Part shown: positions 50 to 7,203 of the stretch, one piece after another
How the letters are laid out: the number at the start of each line of letters is the position of its first letter
How positions within the stretch are numbered: position 1 is the stretch's first letter
DNA from: a virus
Virus genome (UHGV): UHGV-0169025
Reading direction: 5' to 3' (one strand)
DNA length: 12,045 bases
Notes under the pieces: generated by a model
What the model was told of the DNA's origin: nothing
Database searches by the model: none
What the model saw: the letters and a program-made list of their open reading frames with translations, nothing else
Position numbers and translations under genes: made by a program

Positions 50-751
50 ATGGCTGATTCGAATCTCAATGAGCCGGTAATCATTCAGGCTACACGACTC
101 GACACATCAGTCCTTCCACGCAATATATTCAGCCAGTCTTACCTGTTGTATGTCATTAATCAGGGGGCTGATGTCGGCGCAATTGCCGGGAAGGCAAATC
201 AGGCTGGTCAGGGCGCTTACGATGCCCAGGTAAAAAACGATGAACAGGATGTCGAACTGGCTGATCACGACGCAAGAATCACCGCAAACACAAAAGCGAT
301 AAATCTCCTTGAGGTCAGGTTAACAACCGCCGAAGGGAAGATAGTCGTACTGCGTAGCGATGTTGATTACTTGCTGGATGAGGTTATCGATATTCAGGCG
401 CATCTGGTCACTGTTGACCAAAGACTGGATGACGTAGAAAACGATGTCTCTGGCATTAAGAGTGATTACGTATCGAAAACCGTAACCGAATTGCAGTCTC
501 TTGAGTCACCGCTGGATGTAAAAACATCATATTCAGTTGATGGAATTCAGGTTGTTGGAGCAAGAAATACCGGATGGACTGCAGCCACAGGTACGCCACT
601 TCTTGGCTCATTCAACGCTAACCAGTCATACACTGTCGGCACTACGTACACGCAATCCGAAGTCGCCGCTCTCGCTACAGGTTTGCAGCAGGCGCGGCAG
701 CGTATTCTGGCGCTTGAAACGGCACTTAGATTACATGGGCTGATTGACTGA
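50..751 (+). CDS. Phage tail needle (plug) protein, P22 gp26 family
   Basis: 233-aa ORF. The N-terminus [18 protein letters not shown]...[19 protein letters not shown], the heptad-rich central region and the C-terminus [19 protein letters not shown] fit my recollection of the trimeric coiled-coil P22 gp26. Stop overlaps the next start (TGATG at 749-753). Position before gp14/7/20/16-like genes matches P22 order. Confidence 0.85.
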
Positions 752-1206
752 TGATTACATTCAAACCAACGCGAAACATCGACCTGATCGAAGCAGTAGG
801 AAATCACCCTGACATCATCGCCGGGAGCAACAACGGTGATGGATACGACTACAAACCTGATTGCCGTTACTTTGAGGTGAACGTGCACGGTCAGTTTGGC
901 GGCATTGTTTACTATCAGGAGATTCAGCCGCTGACATTCGATTGCCACGCCATGTACCTGCCAGAGGTTCGCGGATTCAGCAAGGAAATCGGGCTGGCGT
1001 TCTGGCGATACATTCTGACTAACACCACTGTTCAGTGTGTCATATCGTTCGCTGCGCGCAAATTCCGCCACGGGCAGATGTACTGCGCAATGATTGGCCT
1101 TAATCGTGTAGGAACCATCAAGAAATACTTCAAAGGCGTGGATGACGTGACGTTTTACAGCGCCACACGCGAAGAACTAATCGACTTCCTGAATCACAGG
1201 AGATAG
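751..1206 (+). CDS. Phage protein at the P22 gene 14 position (gp14-like, infectivity/ejection-associated)
   Basis: 151-aa ORF, start overlaps the upstream stop by 1 nt, ends 2 nt before the gp7-like start. Assignment is positional (between gp26-like and gp7-like); I do not recognise the sequence itself. Confidence 0.7.
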   Translation: MITFKPTRNIDLIEAVGNHPDIIAGSNNGDGYDYKPDCRYFEVNVHGQFGGIVYYQEIQPLTFDCHAMYLPEVRGFSKEIGLAFWRYILTNTTVQCVISFAARKFRHGQMYCAMIGLNRVGTIKKYFKGVDDVTFYSATREELIDFLNHRR

Positions 1207-1208
1207 CC

Positions 1209-1904
1209 ATGTTATATGCATTTAAGCTGGGCAGAAAACTGCGTGGCGAGGAACCTTATTGCCCTGAAAAAGGCGGGAAAGGTGGCAGTTCTGATAAAAG
1301 TGCAAAGTATGCCGCAGAAGCTCAGAAGTATGCCGCAGACCTGCAAAATCAGCAGTTCAACACCATCATGAACAACCTGAAACCGTTTACTCCTCTGGCT
1401 GAGAAGTATGTCGGCAGCCTCGAGAACTTATCGTCTCTGGAGGGGCAAGGTCAGGCGCTTAACCAGTATTACAACTCTCAGCAGTACAAAGACCTTGCTG
1501 GTCAGGCGCGCTATCAGAGTCTGGCGGCAGCGGAAGCAACAGGTGGATTAGGTTCCACCGCAACCAGTAATCAGTTAGCAACAATCGCACCAACTCTTGG
1601 CCAGCAATGGCTATCTGGACAAATGAACAACTACCAGAATCTGGCAAATATTGGTCTTGGCGCTCTTCAGGGACAGGCAAACGCCGGGCAAACATATGCC
1701 AACAACATGAGTCAGATTTCGCAGCAAAGTGCGGCTCTTGCAGCGGCAAATGCTAATAGACCTTCCGGCCTTCAATCTGCAATAGGAGGGGCTGCCTCTG
1801 GAGCAATTGCTGGAGCACAGCTTGGCAGCATTGTTCCAGGTATTGGTACTGGTATTGGTGCCGCTGTTGGTGGCGGTCTTGGTCTGCTTGGCTCGTTGTT
1901 TTAA
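1209..1904 (+). CDS. Ejection (E) protein, P22 gp7-like
   Basis: 231 aa (P22 gp7 is about 229 aa). SD AGGAG at 1198-1202, 6 nt before ATG 1209. Q/N/A-rich low-complexity body and a C-terminal glycine-zipper hydrophobic tail (AIGGAASGAIAGAQLGSIVPGIGTGIGAAVGGGLGLLGSLF). Position matches P22 gene 7. Confidence 0.8.
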   Translation: MLYAFKLGRKLRGEEPYCPEKGGKGGSSDKSAKYAAEAQKYAADLQNQQFNTIMNNLKPFTPLAEKYVGSLENLSSLEGQGQALNQYYNSQQYKDLAGQARYQSLAAAEATGGLGSTATSNQLATIAPTLGQQWLSGQMNNYQNLANIGLGALQGQANAGQTYANNMSQISQQSAALAAANANRPSGLQSAIGGAASGAIAGAQLGSIVPGIGTGIGAAVGGGLGLLGSLF

Positions 1905-1914
1905 GGGGTAATCA

Positions 1915-3279
1915 ATGGCTACGTGGCAACAGGGTATTAATTCTGGTGGTTTTCTGGCTGGCATTGGTGCGCAAAACGAGAATGCGCCAAAGGCAAGCGA
2001 CATTAACGCAACGCTTGGTCTGATCCGCGAAAACAATGAACTAGCTCGCTCAGGTGCAAATAACGTTGGCCTGACCGCCTTACGTGGTCTGGCTGGAGTT
2101 GCTGATATTTATAAGCAGGAGCAGCAACAGAAAGCTATTAGGGCGTTCAATAAGGTTCACGCTGATGCATGGGCTTCTGGTGATCCATCGGGACTATTTA
2201 AGTTTGCCCAGGAAAATCCAGCGTTTGTTGCACAGGCACAACAGGCGTTTTCCGGTCTTAATGAGCAGCAACGCAACGATATGGGCGATTTAGCCATGAG
2301 GGCTAACGTCGCTCTTTCTCAGGGACCGGAAGCCTACAGTAAATTCATTACTGACAACAAGGACAGGTTAAATCGCGTTGGTGCTAATGCTGACTGGATG
2401 ATTCAGACAGGTATCCAGAATCCAGAGCAGCTATCACACATGCTGACTACTATGTCTATCGGTGCGCTTGGACCAGAAAAGGCGTTTGCTGTTCAGGATA
2501 AGATGGCTGGTCGTGAAATTGACCGAGGCAGGCTGGCAGAGACAATCCGCAGCAATCAGGCTGGCGAGGCGCTAACAGCGCGTGGTCAGAATATCACGAT
2601 GCGCGGTCAGGATTTATCGATGCAGAGAGCATCAATGAAAGGGGCGGTTGGGAATAATGAGCGTACAGTTCAGTTAGCAGATGGCAGAACTGTAACGGTA
2701 GGCGGGAAGCTTCACGGCGCTGGGGCTAATGCGTTCTACGAAGGTATCGACAACGAGGGGAATATGGTTCGCGTTCCTGCTGGCTCTATTGCCGCTCCGG
2801 CTACATCGGCAGCAAGCGCGCAGAATTACACAATGAAGAAAGATCTTGATGCAATTTCTGGTGCATCAATTGACGATCTTGGCTTCATGACTGGCATTAC
2901 AGGCTCTTCAGGTTCTCCTGCTCTTGGTGCAGATATTCGTAGCCGTGCATCTGGTGGTGATCAGAGGAAACTATACAACGCTGCACAGCGAATCCAAGGA
3001 AAGATGCAGAATCAGGGCATTGCAGCAGCCAGAGACATGGGGGCATCCGGTATCAACACCGTTGCAGAAGCAAAGATGTATTTTCAAGGTATGCCACAGG
3101 TTGATTTCTCAAGCCCTGAAGCACTGCAACAATCAATGCGCGACATTCAGCAATATACCGACAATTACAACCAACAATATAACGTTAATGTTGGTAAATC
3201 TCAGCGGCAGCAATCTCAACCTACACAGGTATCACAGCCAGCAGCCAGCAGTAACTTTTCTTCACTATGGGGTGATTAA
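1915..3279 (+). CDS. Ejection (E) protein, P22 gp20-like
   Basis: 454 aa (P22 gp20 is about 471 aa). SD AAGGGG 6 nt upstream of ATG 1915. Stop overlaps the next start (TAATG at 3277-3281). Assignment by position and size. Confidence 0.8.
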
Positions 3280-5144
3280 TGGCTAAAGCATGGAAAGATG
3301 TTATCGCCTCTCCACAGTATCAGGCGTTAACTGAAGAACAGAAAGCACAGGCTCAAGCGCAATATTTTGATGAGGTTGTTGCCCCTAAGGCTGGTGACAA
3401 ATGGGCTGAAGCAAGAGATCAGTTTTATGCAGCATACCCTCCGCCTCAGCAGCAGAAAGAAGAACCATCATTGATGCAACAAGCTGGTGATTGGCTCACA
3501 GGTGGTCAAAGTGCAGGGCAAATTGCAGAGCAGGCTGGTCGTGGTCTGGTAAACATACCATTCGACGTATTACAGGGCGGCGCAAGCCTGATTAATGCAA
3601 TCAGCCAGGGGCTTGGTGGCCCCAAGGTTTTGGATGATGTTTATCGTCCAGTCGATCGACCGACAGACCCCTACGCTCAAGCTGGTGAAACAATTGGCGG
3701 GTATTTAGTTCCAGGAGTTGGAACGGCAGGAAGCATGGCTATTGGATCACTGGCAGAGGCCGCAAATCAGAAAGGCGATTTCGCACAAAATGCAACTAAA
3801 AATGCCGGAGTTAACCTTGCCGCTCAGGGGGTTCTTTCCGCAGCAGCAAAGGGTATAGGGCGTGGAATTACTGCTGTTCGTGGCGAAATATCACCAGCAG
3901 ATCAGCAATTGCTCAAGCGTGCCGCTGCGGCAGATGTACCAGTTATGACATCGGATGTAGTTCCTCCAAAAACAAAACTTGGCAATCAACTGCAGGGTTA
4001 CTCAGAAGGAGTCATAGCTGGGACTGGACCAATGAGAGCCGCACAGCAGGATGCTAGAACCAAGCTTGTTAATCGCTTCACCGAAAAATACGGCGACTAC
4101 GATCCATCTGTAGTCGTTGATAGTCTAAAGTCAGGAGTTGCAAGGGAAAAATCGTTAGCCAAGTCAAAACTAAACAACCTGTCAGGAAGAATGGTTGGAA
4201 AGCCAGTTGATACAAGTGGCGCCATAAGAGCTATCGACGGAGCAGTAAACGAACTTGGGAAACTTAAAGGTGTTTCTGACACCCAGACCATTTCTGCGCT
4301 TAATGATTATAAGAATGCCATTCAGGAGATAACAAATGGAGATGATGCCTTTGAGTTACTTGATAAGCTGAGAACTCAGTTCCGCATTGACGTAAAAGGC
4401 GATCGTACAGTTCTGCCATCAATGTCGCAAACAATGGTCGACAGGGTCTACAACTCGCTAACCAATAGCCTTAGTAAATCTATAGCGAAAGGACTTAGCC
4501 CAAAAGATGCTTCAGCATGGAGAGCGGGAAAAGCTGATTATGCAAAAATGGCAACACATGCAACTCAAACGCGCCTTAAAAACGTTCTAAACAAAGGAGA
4601 TTTAACTCCCGAGGCTGTAAATACCATTGTGTATGGACAATATGGGTCAGATATAGCTCGATTGTACGGGAAACTCGATCAAAAAGGTAAAGACATGCTA
4701 AGGGCGGCATATATCAGCAAAATAGCTGACAAGGTAGGTGACAGCCCTCAGAAAATGATGACCGAGCTTGGCAAGCTGCAAAAACAAGCAAATGGTCAGG
4801 TGTTTAAAACCGTATTTGGTGGGAAGAACGGAAAAGAGATAGAGGGGATGTTATCTATTCTCGATGCTACCAAAAGAGCATCTGAGGCTAATGTTGTGAC
4901 GAAGACTGGCATGACACTCGCGCCTTTGGTAAGGGTTATTGGTAACCTAAAAACCGGAGGCGCGCTATTGGCTGGGGAAACAGGGATTGGCCTTATGTCG
5001 AGGGTTTATGAAAGCCCTATGGCTAGGAATGCGCTCTTACGTCTGGCAAACACTAAAGCTGGAACGCCAGCTTATGAAAGAGCGCTGAATAACGCCGCAA
5101 ATGCCATCAGACCAATACTTGCCAATGATGCAACTGATCGCTAA
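3279..5144 (+). CDS. Ejection (E) protein, P22 gp16-like
   Basis: 621 aa (P22 gp16 is about 609 aa). Translationally coupled to the upstream gene. Last gene of the + strand late block before the accessory region, as in P22. Confidence 0.8.
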   Translation: MAKAWKDVIASPQYQALTEEQKAQAQAQYFDEVVAPKAGDKWAEARDQFYAAYPPPQQQKEEPSLMQQAGDWLTGGQSAGQIAEQAGRGLVNIPFDVLQGGASLINAISQGLGGPKVLDDVYRPVDRPTDPYAQAGETIGGYLVPGVGTAGSMAIGSLAEAANQKGDFAQNATKNAGVNLAAQGVLSAAAKGIGRGITAVRGEISPADQQLLKRAAAADVPVMTSDVVPPKTKLGNQLQGYSEGVIAGTGPMRAAQQDARTKLVNRFTEKYGDYDPSVVVDSLKSGVAREKSLAKSKLNNLSGRMVGKPVDTSGAIRAIDGAVNELGKLKGVSDTQTISALNDYKNAIQEITNGDDAFELLDKLRTQFRIDVKGDRTVLPSMSQTMVDRVYNSLTNSLSKSIAKGLSPKDASAWRAGKADYAKMATHATQTRLKNVLNKGDLTPEAVNTIVYGQYGSDIARLYGKLDQKGKDMLRAAYISKIADKVGDSPQKMMTELGKLQKQANGQVFKTVFGGKNGKEIEGMLSILDATKRASEANVVTKTGMTLAPLVRVIGNLKTGGALLAGETGIGLMSRVYESPMARNALLRLANTKAGTPAYERALNNAANAIRPILANDATDR

Positions 5145-5165: not shown

Positions 5166-5804
5166 TTAATTGCGAATGGAATCGCGGAACTCTTTGCTTG
5201 ATAGAAAAGGATCTGTTCTCCTTAACTCATCATAGTTTTTATTAAACTTTCTTGCTTCACCTGGGTATCTGTTGAACAAAACATTGCAGAAAAAAGAGAG
5301 CAATAACTCACATATGAATGCTAATACCCTGAAAAATAAAGGTATAAAAAGAAGGGAAGGTTCATTGAAGTCTCTATTCCAAACAAAATAGACAATCATC
5401 CCGACATACCAAATTGATATCCCTATACTGATGATTGTTCCAACAGAGGTAACTACGATCCCGATTAAGTCGGACAGTCTGTTTGCCAGTAACTCATTTG
5501 AGTATCTTGCAATCATATACCGCCAACATTTTGCAATATCATCCTGATCTGTAGAGTCTTCTGGAATAGCTAGGCTTCTACATATTGAAGTAGCTCTTTT
5601 TTTCTCAACTCTTTTTGAGAGCCACCCATTAAAGAGATACATCAACACCTGCGTTGCTATTCCTGCACCAAGTGATATCAAAGACATCCCCAAAAATCGC
5701 CATCCTGGAGATAGTGACTGGTACTGCCAAACAAAAAAAATTAAAAAACCCAATGAGCCTATGACATAGGCTGATGTATCGCTATATATATCTATTTTTT
5801 TCAT
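5166..5804 (-). CDS. Predicted 4-helix inner-membrane protein at the sieA position; candidate superinfection-exclusion or abortive-infection protein
   Basis: Minus-strand ORF. Preferred start is ATG at 5804, preceded by SD AAGGAG (revcomp of 5815-5820); the ORF-track start at 5837 is a GTG. Four hydrophobic segments (AYVIGSLGFLIFFVWQY; FLGMSLISLGAGIATQVLMYLF; LIGIVVTSVGTIISIGISIWYVGMIVYFVW; LLFIPLFFRVLAFICELLLSFFCNVLF). Visibly AT-rich DNA. Lies directly downstream of and co-oriented with the Mnt-like gene. Confidence 0.65.
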   Translation of the reverse strand: MKKIDIYSDTSAYVIGSLGFLIFFVWQYQSLSPGWRFLGMSLISLGAGIATQVLMYLFNGWLSKRVEKKRATSICRSLAIPEDSTDQDDIAKCWRYMIARYSNELLANRLSDLIGIVVTSVGTIISIGISIWYVGMIVYFVWNRDFNEPSLLFIPLFFRVLAFICELLLSFFCNVLFNRYPGEARKFNKNYDELRRTDPFLSSKEFRDSIRN

Positions 5805-5854
5805 TGAGTAGCCACTCCTTAGTTTTGAGCAGAACACCGGATGATAATGTTTTG

Positions 5855-6106
5855 TTATGTGTCTTTTGGGATTCTATCCAGTAACTCGTTGGAAATTTTA
5901 TCAAGTAAAGATTTTATTTGTTTAAGATCTAATGATTTGTCTACTGATGAGACGTCATATGATAACGCATCCTCAAGAATTTGAACTATCTCTGAGTTCA
6001 TAGATCGACCGTTTCGTTTAGCCCTTTCCGCAATAGCACTACGCATGCCGTCAGGCATTCTAACCGTAAATCTTTCTATGAAATTTGATTCGTCTTTTTC
6101 TGACAT
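5855..6106 (-). CDS. Ribbon-helix-helix repressor, Arc/Mnt family (Mnt-like, positional mnt equivalent)
   Basis: RHH signature FTVRMPDGMRSAIAERAKRNGRSMNSEIVQILEDAL resembles the Mnt/Arc N-terminal fold (NGRSMNSE...Q...DAL). Start chosen at ATG 6106 (MSEKDESNF...) so the beta-strand sits near the N-terminus; the longer ORF-track start (ATG 6151/6154) adds a hydrophobic MMLLCFLLLICLANKK extension that looks unlikely. Divergent from the Arc-like gene as in P22 immI. Confidence 0.7.
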   Translation of the reverse strand: MSEKDESNFIERFTVRMPDGMRSAIAERAKRNGRSMNSEIVQILEDALSYDVSSVDKSLDLKQIKSLLDKISNELLDRIPKDT

Positions 6107-6155
6107 TTTCTTATTCGCAAGGCATATGAGCAATAAAAAACACAGTAGCATCATA

Positions 6156-6215
6156 TTGACATTATGAGCAATGGCATCATAATGGTGTCATGACATCATG
6201 GTGATGTCATTATGA
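6156..6215. promoter_or_regulatory. Divergent overlapping sigma70-like promoters (Pant-like rightward, Pmnt-like leftward) with palindromic operators
   Basis: Plus strand: TTGACA (6156-6161), 16-nt spacer, CATAAT (6178-6183). Minus strand: TGACAC (revcomp of 6184-6189), 18-nt spacer, CATAAT (revcomp of 6161-6166). Palindrome O1 CATTATGA-N9-TCATAATG (6160-6184) covers both core promoters. Perfect palindrome O2 ATGACATCA-TGG-TGATGTCAT (6190-6210) sits at the predicted rightward transcription start. A third CATTATGA copy is at 6208-6215. Confidence 0.5.
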
Positions 6216-7134: not shown

Positions 7135-7165
7135 AAAAAGAAAACCGCCAGTGTGCTGCTGGCGG
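7135..7165 (-). terminator. Intrinsic-terminator-like hairpin oriented for leftward transcription
   Basis: CCGCCAG (7145-7151), 7-nt loop, CTGGCGG (7159-7165). Read on the minus strand the stem is followed by TTTTCTTTTT (revcomp of 7135-7144). A second 5-bp GC hairpin GCGCC-GGAC-GGCGC lies at 7121-7134. On the plus strand the run is A-rich and upstream of the stem, so it is not a convincing rightward terminator. Confidence 0.3.
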
Positions 7166-7203
7166 CCTATGTCACACCCTTACTACCACATAAGGAATGC
7201 CTA

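What the first reader, a model, noticed from the sequence alone, without database searches (positions are those of the whole stretch)
5166..5854. Uncharacterised 4-helix membrane protein in the sieA slot, co-oriented with an Mnt-like repressor
Between the conserved ejection gene (gp16-like) and the immunity switch, where P22 carries sieA, sits an AT-rich gene for a ~212-aa protein with four predicted transmembrane helices, a ~50-residue charged loop and a charged C-terminal tail. It lies 50 bp downstream of the Mnt-like RHH gene on the same strand, so it may be co-transcribed from the lysogenic leftward promoter. That is the expression logic expected of a prophage-encoded exclusion or abortive-infection function. 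I recognise no catalytic motif or named family. Its 3' end is only 21 bp from the gp16-like stop, with no terminator hairpin between the convergent genes. This is my strongest candidate for an undescribed phage-defence function in the window.
Basis: partly seen in the sequence, partly recalled or inferred. Interest (0 to 1): 0.65.

Follow-up and report, generated by a model that had tools for sequence, protein, structure and literature searches.

The report
Known type B SieA exclusion gene
The "uncharacterised" membrane protein is the P22-family superinfection-exclusion gene sieA in its divergent "type B" form. It differs by one residue from the E. coli HS prophage allele, which was shown in 2024 to block DNA injection by P22-like phages, so the finding is real but already described.

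Summary
The ORF is real: 5166..5804 on the minus strand, 212 aa, AT-rich, with four hydrophobic segments. It lies 50 bp downstream of an Mnt-like gene and 21 bp from the gene 16 stop. It is not an unknown family. It matches PHROG 7745 "SieA-like" (E 1.6e-20) and aligns to P22 SieA (28% identity, E 2e-24). It carries the published SieA motif FxRYPxEAxxFNK as FNRYPGEARKFNK. It is 211/212 identical (L62I) to the only SieA homologue found in the fetched 12.7-kb stretch of the E. coli HS prophage HS1, which spans the gene 16 to tailspike interval. Leavitt et al. 2024 (mBio, PMC10883804) defined SieA types A, B and C. They cloned the HS1 type B gene and showed it fully excludes P22, L, MG40, MG178, LP7 and most ejection-protein hybrids. 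Databases still call it "hypothetical protein", and Pfam, NCBIfam and PADLOC have no model. One question stays open. Unlike P22, this prophage lacks orf59a and the mnt terminator, and it has no good -35 before sieA. Read-through from the mnt promoter is therefore plausible but untested. Interest is low; novelty is "already known".

The parts
5166..5804 (-). sieA, type B: 212-aa superinfection-exclusion protein predicted to have four transmembrane segments. The stop codon is at 5166..5168.
   Evidence: ORF. PHROG 7745 SieA-like, E 1.6e-20. 28% identity to P22 SieA, E 2e-24. 211/212 identical to the E. coli HS prophage HS1 protein. Motif FNRYPGEARKFNK at residues 177-189. Hydropathy.
5805..5854 (-). 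50-bp leader between the Mnt-like stop and the sieA start. It holds the SD AAGGAG (5820..5815) and -10-like hexamers CATTAT (5849..5844) and TATCAT (5846..5841). It has no terminator.
   Evidence: Sequence. Bases 5805..5850 are shared with HS1, and 5815..5854 with AR_0058, where a different gene follows. CAAAACTAAGGAG is shared with P22. Folding z-score -0.42 and no terminator.
5855..6106 (-). Mnt-like ribbon-helix-helix repressor gene, 83 codons from the ATG at 6106. The 99-codon ORF from 6154 would start upstream of the predicted promoter's -10.
   Evidence: Pfam Arc PF03869, E 2.4e-17. 55% identity to P22 Mnt over residues 12-49 only. Sequence.
6150..6183 (.). Overlapping divergent promoter-like sites of an immI-type switch. 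Leftward: ATGCCA-16-TATGAT (6177..6150, towards mnt and sieA). Rightward: TTGACA-16-CATAAT (6156..6183, towards arc and ant). Palindromes at 6170-6211 could be operators.
   Evidence: Pattern scan, inverted repeats, and the P22 layout for comparison. These are consensus matches only.
3279..5144 (+). Gene 16 homologue, an ejection (DNA transfer) protein and one presumed target of SieA. Its last ~40 codons are identical to HS1 gp16 and travel with sieA.
   Evidence: PHROG 770, E 2.3e-242. Alignment with HS1 and P22 gp16. Mosaic joint at about 5022. Residue G544 corresponds to P22 G532, and K558 lies at the P546 position.
1915..3279 (+). Gene 20 homologue, an ejection protein and the other presumed target of SieA.
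   Evidence: 82% identical to P22 gp20. T326, T329, A336 and G338 match the wild-type, SieA-sensitive P22 residues T338, T341, A348 and G350.

Best explanation
The gene is sieA of a P22-like E. coli prophage, in the sequence class that Leavitt et al. 2024 named type B.

**Product.** The protein is a small polytopic inner-membrane protein. The inferred topology, which follows the published one, places a short N-terminus in the cytoplasm and has four membrane spans. A roughly 50-residue cytoplasmic loop lies between spans 2 and 3. The C-terminal tail carries the conserved FxRYPxEAxxFNK motif and is also cytoplasmic.

**Function.** Made from the prophage, it prevents superinfecting P22-like phages from delivering DNA across the inner membrane. 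It most likely interferes with assembly or function of the trans-envelope conduit that the ejection proteins gp20 and gp16 form.

**Shown here:** homology to P22 SieA, the motif, the conserved position, and 211/212 identity to the HS1 allele.

**Shown in the literature:**
- For the HS1 allele: complete exclusion of P22, L, MG40, MG178, LP7 and the L, Sf6 and CUS-3 ejection-protein hybrids, with only partial exclusion of the HK620 hybrid.
- For P22 SieA: inner-membrane location, blocked K+ release and DNA entry, and escape mutations in the C-terminal regions of gp16 and gp20.

**Inferred:**
- The allele in this window behaves the same as HS1 SieA.
- It is expressed in the lysogen.
- Its transcription comes from a weak leader promoter, from read-through from the mnt promoter, or from both.
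For: - PHROG 7745 "superinfection exclusion SieA-like", E 1.6e-20, covering profile positions 15-159 of 164.
- tblastn against 50,697 phage records hits only sieA genes of P22 and its relatives, 38 records at E 3e-11.
- Pairwise BLASTP to P22 SieA gives 28% identity at E 2e-24.
- The alignment shows a 30-residue N-terminal extension and an invariant RYPGEA..FNK, as published for type B.
- The motif regular expression matches in both proteins.
- The protein is 211/212 identical to the HS protein at NC_009800 325462..326100. That is the only P22 SieA hit in the fetched 12.7-kb HS stretch, which runs from the gp10 homologue to the tailspike gene.
- Experimental results and the type A/B/C scheme are in PMC10883804.
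- The gene order is that of P22: 26, 14, 7, 20, 16, then sieA and mnt on the opposite strand, then arc and ant, then the tailspike gene and, after it, the integrase gene on the opposite strand.
Against: - Nothing here tests this allele, which has L62I in the second span, or its expression.
- The mapping of locus tag EcHS_A0321 to the HS gene at 325462..326100 is by elimination. RefSeq shows only the new tag ECHS_RS01600.
- Pfam, NCBIfam and PADLOC have no SieA model. The family call therefore rests on PHROGs, BLAST, the motif and synteny.
- The molecular mechanism of SieA is unresolved in the literature. The options are direct contact with gp16/gp20 or occlusion of a host factor such as YajC.
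- The four-span topology is a prediction. The first span passes a hydropathy threshold only with 15-17-residue windows.
Confidence: 0.93

Rival explanations
1. This is an undescribed phage-defence or abortive-infection protein that merely occupies the sieA slot.
For: Pfam, NCBIfam and PADLOC return nothing significant. Every database name for it is "hypothetical protein". Identity to P22 SieA is only about 28%.
Against: There is significant homology to SieA across profile positions 15-159 of 164. The family motif is present. The protein differs at one residue from the experimentally tested HS1 SieA. P22 SieA acts at DNA entry rather than by killing the cell.
Confidence: 0.03
2. On regulation: in this prophage, sieA is the distal gene of an mnt-sieA operon driven by the leftward immI promoter. 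In P22, by contrast, it is transcribed from its own PsieA.
For: - Only 50 bp separate the two genes, with no terminator or stable hairpin.
- orf59a and the mnt terminator of P22 are absent.
- HS1 has a TTGATA-17-CATTAT promoter-like site before sieA. In the window the -35 position falls in the mnt 3' end and reads ATCCCA, and the scan reports no promoter in the spacer.
Against: - The -10-like CATTAT/TATCAT and the whole leader are conserved with HS1, where 106 bp of upstream DNA sufficed for full exclusion.
- A promoter-like site, TAAACA-18-TAAAAT with a TG, lies inside mnt at 5924..5895.
- The number of promoter-like sites in the region is no higher than in shuffled sequence, 4 against 4.4.
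- There are no transcript data.
Confidence: 0.4
3. The gene is an inactive remnant or has changed specificity, because of L62I or the different neighbouring genes.
For: One substitution relative to the tested allele. The upstream gene differs from HS1: an Mnt-like gene instead of an HTH plus S24 peptidase repressor.
Against: - The ORF is intact with a good SD.
- L to I in a membrane span is conservative.
- This exact protein occurs on at least 935 contigs in several enterobacterial species, which argues for maintained function.
- Types A and B, at about 25% identity, already show the same specificity.
Confidence: 0.04

Closest known systems
HS1 prophage SieA of E. coli HS (type B SieA; EcHS_A0321; Leavitt et al. 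2024, PMC10883804)
   Same: 211/212 residues are identical. The length is the same (212 aa), as is the position next to the gene 16 stop. The 46-bp leader and the last ~40 codons of gene 16 are also shared. This allele was shown to exclude P22-like phages.
   Different: There is one substitution, L62I. The upstream neighbour is an Mnt-like RHH gene here, but an HTH plus S24 peptidase repressor gene in HS1. As a result, the -35 region of the HS1 promoter-like site is not conserved.
Phage P22 SieA (type A, 162/164 aa)
   Same: It is homologous over its three spans, the long loop and the FxRYPxEAxxFNK motif. It has the same slot and orientation, a 21-22-bp convergent gap to gene 16, and a shared CAAAACTAAGGAG ribosome-binding region. 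The literature reports the same exclusion spectrum for types A and B.
   Different: Identity is only about 28%. The window protein has 30 extra N-terminal residues with an additional span and a longer C-terminal tail. P22 has orf59a, an mnt terminator and an annotated PsieA between mnt and sieA.
Type C SieA (Providencia, Morganella and Proteus prophages)
   Same: Same family and slot according to the paper. It also has an extra N-terminal span.
   Different: Type C is reported to have an N-terminal extension of about 40 residues and to be limited to those genera. No type C sequence was compared here.
Injection-blocking membrane proteins of other phages (HK97 gp15, Tuc2009 Sie2009, TP-J34 Ltp)
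   Same: They follow the same logic: a prophage-encoded membrane protein that blocks DNA entry by related phages, with escape through the phage's conduit or tape-measure proteins.
   Different: The paper presents them as analogous systems of phages with long non-contractile tails, not as SieA relatives. No sequence comparison with them was made here. This is an analogy, not family membership.
P22 SieB
   Same: It is also a prophage-expressed exclusion function of P22.
   Different: From general knowledge, not tested here: SieB aborts lytic growth after DNA entry and is encoded elsewhere in the genome. Nothing in this gene resembles it.

Membership tests
SieA superinfection-exclusion family (P22-like phages) | Significant sequence homology to P22 SieA over most of its length | tested here: met
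   PHROG 7745, E 1.6e-20, profile positions 15-159 of 164. BLASTP E 2e-24 with 28% identity over 148 residues. tblastn hits only sieA genes in the phage collection.
SieA superinfection-exclusion family (P22-like phages) | Conserved motif FxRYPxEAxxFNK near the C-terminus | tested here: met
   FNRYPGEARKFNK at residues 177-189, against FGRYPGEANGFNK in P22. The motif is as published.
SieA superinfection-exclusion family (P22-like phages) | Located in a P22-like prophage between the homologues of genes 16 and 9, antisense to the late operon | tested here: met
   The gene order is gp26, gp14, gp7, gp20, gp16, then sieA and mnt on the opposite strand, then arc, ant and the tailspike, followed by intS. 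P22 map for comparison.
SieA superinfection-exclusion family (P22-like phages) | Polytopic inner-membrane protein | tested here: inconclusive
   Hydropathy shows three strong hydrophobic segments plus a shorter N-terminal one. This agrees with the published TMHMM result for type B. Membrane location was shown experimentally only for P22 SieA.
SieA superinfection-exclusion family (P22-like phages) | Excludes P22-like phages by blocking DNA injection | not testable with these tools
   Exclusion was shown for the 211/212-identical HS1 allele, and the injection block for P22 SieA, in PMC10883804. This allele was not tested.
Type B SieA (HS1 class) | Close identity to HS1 SieA, with an N-terminal extension of about 30 residues that holds an extra span relative to type A | tested here: met
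   99.5% identity to the HS protein. The alignment with P22 SieA shows a 30-column N-terminal gap. The extra hydrophobic segment is at residues 11-26.
Known defence systems in PADLOC-DB v2 | Match to any PADLOC model | tested here: not met
   No families at E up to 1 for the SieA-like or the Mnt-like protein. No PADLOC-DB v2 model matched at that threshold.

The most novel reading that the evidence does not exclude
In this prophage lineage, sieA may have lost its autonomous expression signals. There is no orf59a, no mnt terminator and no usable -35. It would then have become the distal gene of an mnt-sieA operon, which would tie exclusion to the immI switch. More generally, the conserved ~40-nt leader (CATTATCATCCGGTGTTCTGCTCAAAACTAAGGAG) may act as a portable expression cassette behind which different cargo genes are swapped. 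Cargo seen so far: type B sieA here and in HS1, an unrelated 122-aa secreted-looking PHROG 2651 protein in strain AR_0058, and type A sieA behind a related ribosome-binding site in P22.
Probability: 0.3. Interest if true: 0.25.

Novelty: already known. Interest (0 to 1): 0.12.

Why it matters
As a discovery it matters little, because both the gene class and this allele (bar one residue) were characterised in 2024. The practical value is for annotation. This exact protein occurs on at least 935 contigs, is labelled "hypothetical protein" everywhere, and has no Pfam, NCBIfam or PADLOC model. Automated defence-system surveys will therefore miss type B SieA. It is also a reminder that the slot between gene 16 and immI in P22-like prophages carries variable cargo. 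At least one alternative occupant, a PHROG 2651 protein, has no assigned function.

Tried and rejected
- **Profile libraries.** Pfam, NCBIfam and PADLOC scans of the protein gave only sub-threshold noise: DUF3918, EI24/CysZ and an ABC permease model at E 0.04-0.2. I rejected these as chance.
- **Terminators.** I looked for a terminator in the mnt-sieA spacer and in the gene 16/sieA gap and found none. Two terminator-like hairpins inside the sieA coding region (5772..5756 and 5713..5685) are conserved in HS1. At 2 found against 0.6 expected they are hardly above chance, and I did not pursue them.
- **Leader promoter.** The scan reports no promoter in the 50-bp leader. I found -10-like hexamers by eye, and HS1 has a scan-positive site whose -35 is not conserved in the window. 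This leaves the regulation question open.
- **Source of the window.** I searched for it among complete E. coli genomes. The best record covers only 80% of the window, so it is a mosaic not present as such in that set.
- **Searches not run.** I did not run the large homologue searches or a structure prediction. Identity to a characterised allele had already settled the question, and the compute cost was not justified.
- **Locus tag.** I could not directly confirm that the old locus tag EcHS_A0321 equals ECHS_RS01600. This is inferred from position, from it being the only SieA homologue in the fetched stretch, and from the published description.

Full report
**1. What is in the sequence**

The window is the right arm of a P22-like prophage. 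On the plus strand lie homologues of the tail needle gp26 (50..751), gp14 (751..1206), and the ejection proteins gp7 (1209..1904), gp20 (1915..3279) and gp16 (3279..5144). On the minus strand come the gene in question (5166..5804) and an Mnt-like ribbon-helix-helix gene (5855..6106). Back on the plus strand are an Arc-like gene, an Ant-like antirepressor and two further ORFs. A third Arc-family gene sits on the minus strand, followed by a tailspike gene (8555..10729) and intS (10838..12031, minus).

- The ORF is 212 aa from the ATG at 5804, with an AAGGAG Shine-Dalgarno sequence 10 nt upstream.
- G+C is 0.36-0.40, against 0.45-0.53 in the structural genes.
- Hydropathy shows four hydrophobic segments, a 52-residue charged loop (61-112) and a charged 34-residue tail.
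- The gene is 50 bp downstream of the Mnt-like stop and 21 bp from the gene 16 stop.
- Neither gap contains a terminator.
- P22 has the same 22-bp convergent gap.

**2. What it is**

The protein does not lack a family.
- It matches PHROG 7745, "superinfection exclusion SieA-like", at E 1.6e-20, covering profile positions 15-159 of 164.
- A tblastn search of 50,697 phage records finds 38 records. All are sieA genes of P22 and close relatives, at 27% identity and E 3e-11.
- Pairwise BLASTP to P22 SieA gives 28% identity and E 2e-24.
- The alignment shows a 30-residue N-terminal extension and an invariant RYPGEA..FNK block.
- Pfam, NCBIfam and PADLOC return nothing significant.

**3. It has already been characterised**

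Leavitt et al. 2024 (mBio 15:e02169-23, PMC10883804) report the following.
- Escape mutations lie in the C-terminal regions of gp16 and gp20.
- Types B and C carry N-terminal extensions of about 30 and 40 residues with an extra membrane span.
- All types share the motif FxRYPxEAxxFNK.

The window protein has this motif as FNRYPGEARKFNK at residues 177-189.

The authors also cloned the type B gene of prophage HS1 of E. coli HS (EcHS_A0321), with 106 bp of upstream DNA, into Salmonella. It fully excluded P22, L, MG40, MG178 and LP7, and hybrids carrying L, Sf6 or CUS-3 ejection proteins. It excluded the HK620 hybrid only partially. This was the same spectrum as P22 SieA.

The window gene matches E. 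coli HS (NC_009800, 325462..326146) at 99.6% DNA identity. The HS protein there, ECHS_RS01600, is 212 aa and 211/212 identical to the window protein; the one difference is L62I. It is the only P22 SieA hit in the fetched 12.7-kb stretch of HS, which runs from the gp10 homologue to the tailspike gene. I therefore take it to be the published HS1 sieA. The old locus tag itself could not be displayed, so this last step is by elimination.

**4. How it works**

- **Shown in the literature for P22 SieA:** inner-membrane location, no K+ release, no DNA entry, no other effect on phage growth, and escape through gp16 G532W/P546S plus gp20 T338I/T341I/A348T/G350D.
- **Shown for the near-identical HS1 allele:** the exclusion spectrum described above.
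- **Inferred for this window:** the allele works the same way, by interfering with assembly or function of the gp20/gp16 conduit at the inner membrane.
- **Unresolved in the literature:** whether SieA contacts the ejection proteins directly or occludes a host factor such as YajC.

The prophage's own gp20 is 82% identical to P22 gp20 and keeps the wild-type residues at all four escape positions. Its gp16 keeps the glycine equivalent to G532 and has lysine at the P546 position. Phages of its own kind therefore look like plausible targets. This is inference.

**5. Regulation, the one open point**

P22 has mnt, orf59a and a terminator, and then a separate annotated PsieA promoter before sieA. Here sieA follows the Mnt-like gene after 50 bp with no terminator.

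The leader CATTATCATCCGGTGTTCTGCTCAAAACTAAGGAG is identical in HS1. There a scan-positive TTGATA-17-CATTAT site precedes sieA. In the window the -35 position falls in the 3' end of the Mnt-like gene and reads ATCCCA, and the scan reports no promoter in the spacer.

A leftward promoter-like site (ATGCCA-16-TATGAT, 6177..6150) overlaps a rightward one (TTGACA-16-CATAAT, 6156..6183) among palindromes, as in the P22 immI switch. Read-through from this promoter into sieA is plausible, and I put it at about 0.4. These are consensus matches no more frequent than in shuffled sequence, and there are no transcript data.

**6. Distribution and annotation**

- The gene is present in 31 of 5,426 complete E. 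coli genomes, and at 80% or more of its length in 21.
- Thirteen genomes share the whole gene 16 / sieA / mnt / arc arrangement of the window.
- The exact protein occurs on at least 935 contigs, and its 90% cluster includes Salmonella and Klebsiella entries. All are named "hypothetical protein".
- No sequenced phage in the INPHARED set carries type B. The paper likewise reports that the sieA genes of all 22 sequenced sieA-carrying P22-like phages, all of which infect Salmonella, are close relatives of P22 (type A) sieA.
- The window as a whole is a mosaic not found intact among complete E. coli genomes; the best record covers 80%.

**7. Verdict**

This is a type B SieA that differs at one residue from an experimentally tested allele. 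Novelty is "already known" and interest is low (0.12). The residual value is annotation transfer and the minor question of how sieA is transcribed when it sits directly behind mnt.

Noticed in passing
window 5815-5854; L004 (E. coli AR_0058) 2105-2540; L003 (P22) about 4332-4360: The ~40-nt leader upstream of sieA is also present in prophages where a different gene follows it. In AR_0058 that gene encodes a 122-aa protein with a signal-peptide-like N-terminus (PHROG 2651, unknown function, no Pfam hit). P22 shares CAAAACTAAGGAG, and AR_0058 even shares P22's AAGGAGGTTGGTGTG start region. The slot looks like a cargo-swapping site behind a conserved expression leader.
   Followed up: partly
window 6150-6215: The region between the Mnt-like and Arc-like genes looks like an immI-type switch. 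It has overlapping divergent promoter-like sites (TTGACA-16-CATAAT rightward, ATGCCA-16-TATGAT leftward). It also has a 22-nt palindrome at 6170-6211 and a perfect 9-nt inverted repeat at 6190-6198/6202-6210 that could be operators.
   Followed up: partly
window 5855-6106 (minus strand): The Mnt-like protein resembles P22 Mnt only in the N-terminal RHH part (55% identity over residues 12-49); the C-terminal half is unrelated. RefSeq marks the corresponding gene in strains NC22 and AR_0058 as a truncated pseudogene, although the window has an intact 83-codon ORF. In HS1 the same position holds an HTH plus S24 peptidase (cI/LexA-like) repressor gene instead.
   Followed up: partly
window about 5022 (inside gene 16, 3279-5144): There is a mosaic joint inside gene 16. 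Its last ~40 codons plus sieA are about 99% identical to HS1, while the rest of gp16 is only 54% identical. Several E. coli genomes match only from about 5022 rightwards. The published SieA escape sites in gp16 (G532, P546 in P22) lie just upstream of this co-inherited segment.
   Followed up: partly
window 7153-8452: Between ant and the tailspike gene lie three more genes. One is a second antirepressor-like gene (PHROG 1726, E 7.9e-102, no Pfam hit). One is a 73-aa PHROG 4977 gene of unknown function. The third is another Arc-family RHH gene on the minus strand (8165-8452), divergent from the tailspike gene. P22 has no counterpart of these.
   Followed up: partly
NZ_CP146561.1 and NZ_CP146567.1 (39.9-kb records in the E. 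coli set): Two records labelled as plasmids, about 39.9 kb each, carry the whole gene 16 / sieA / mnt / arc / ant region at 99.6% identity. They are probably circular P22-like phage genomes assembled as plasmids.
   Followed up: no
window 5756-5772 and 5685-5713 (minus strand, inside sieA): Two terminator-like hairpins followed by T-rich runs lie within the first 40 codons of sieA and are conserved in HS1. The count is 2 found against 0.6 +/- 0.8 expected, so this is probably chance.
   Followed up: no
window 8555-12031: The tailspike gene (724 aa) is followed directly by intS, with no gtrABC-type O-antigen conversion genes between them. The closest complete E. coli genomes cover only 65-80% of the window, so part of it is not shared with them. 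I did not check whether the unmatched part includes the tailspike receptor-binding region.
   Followed up: no
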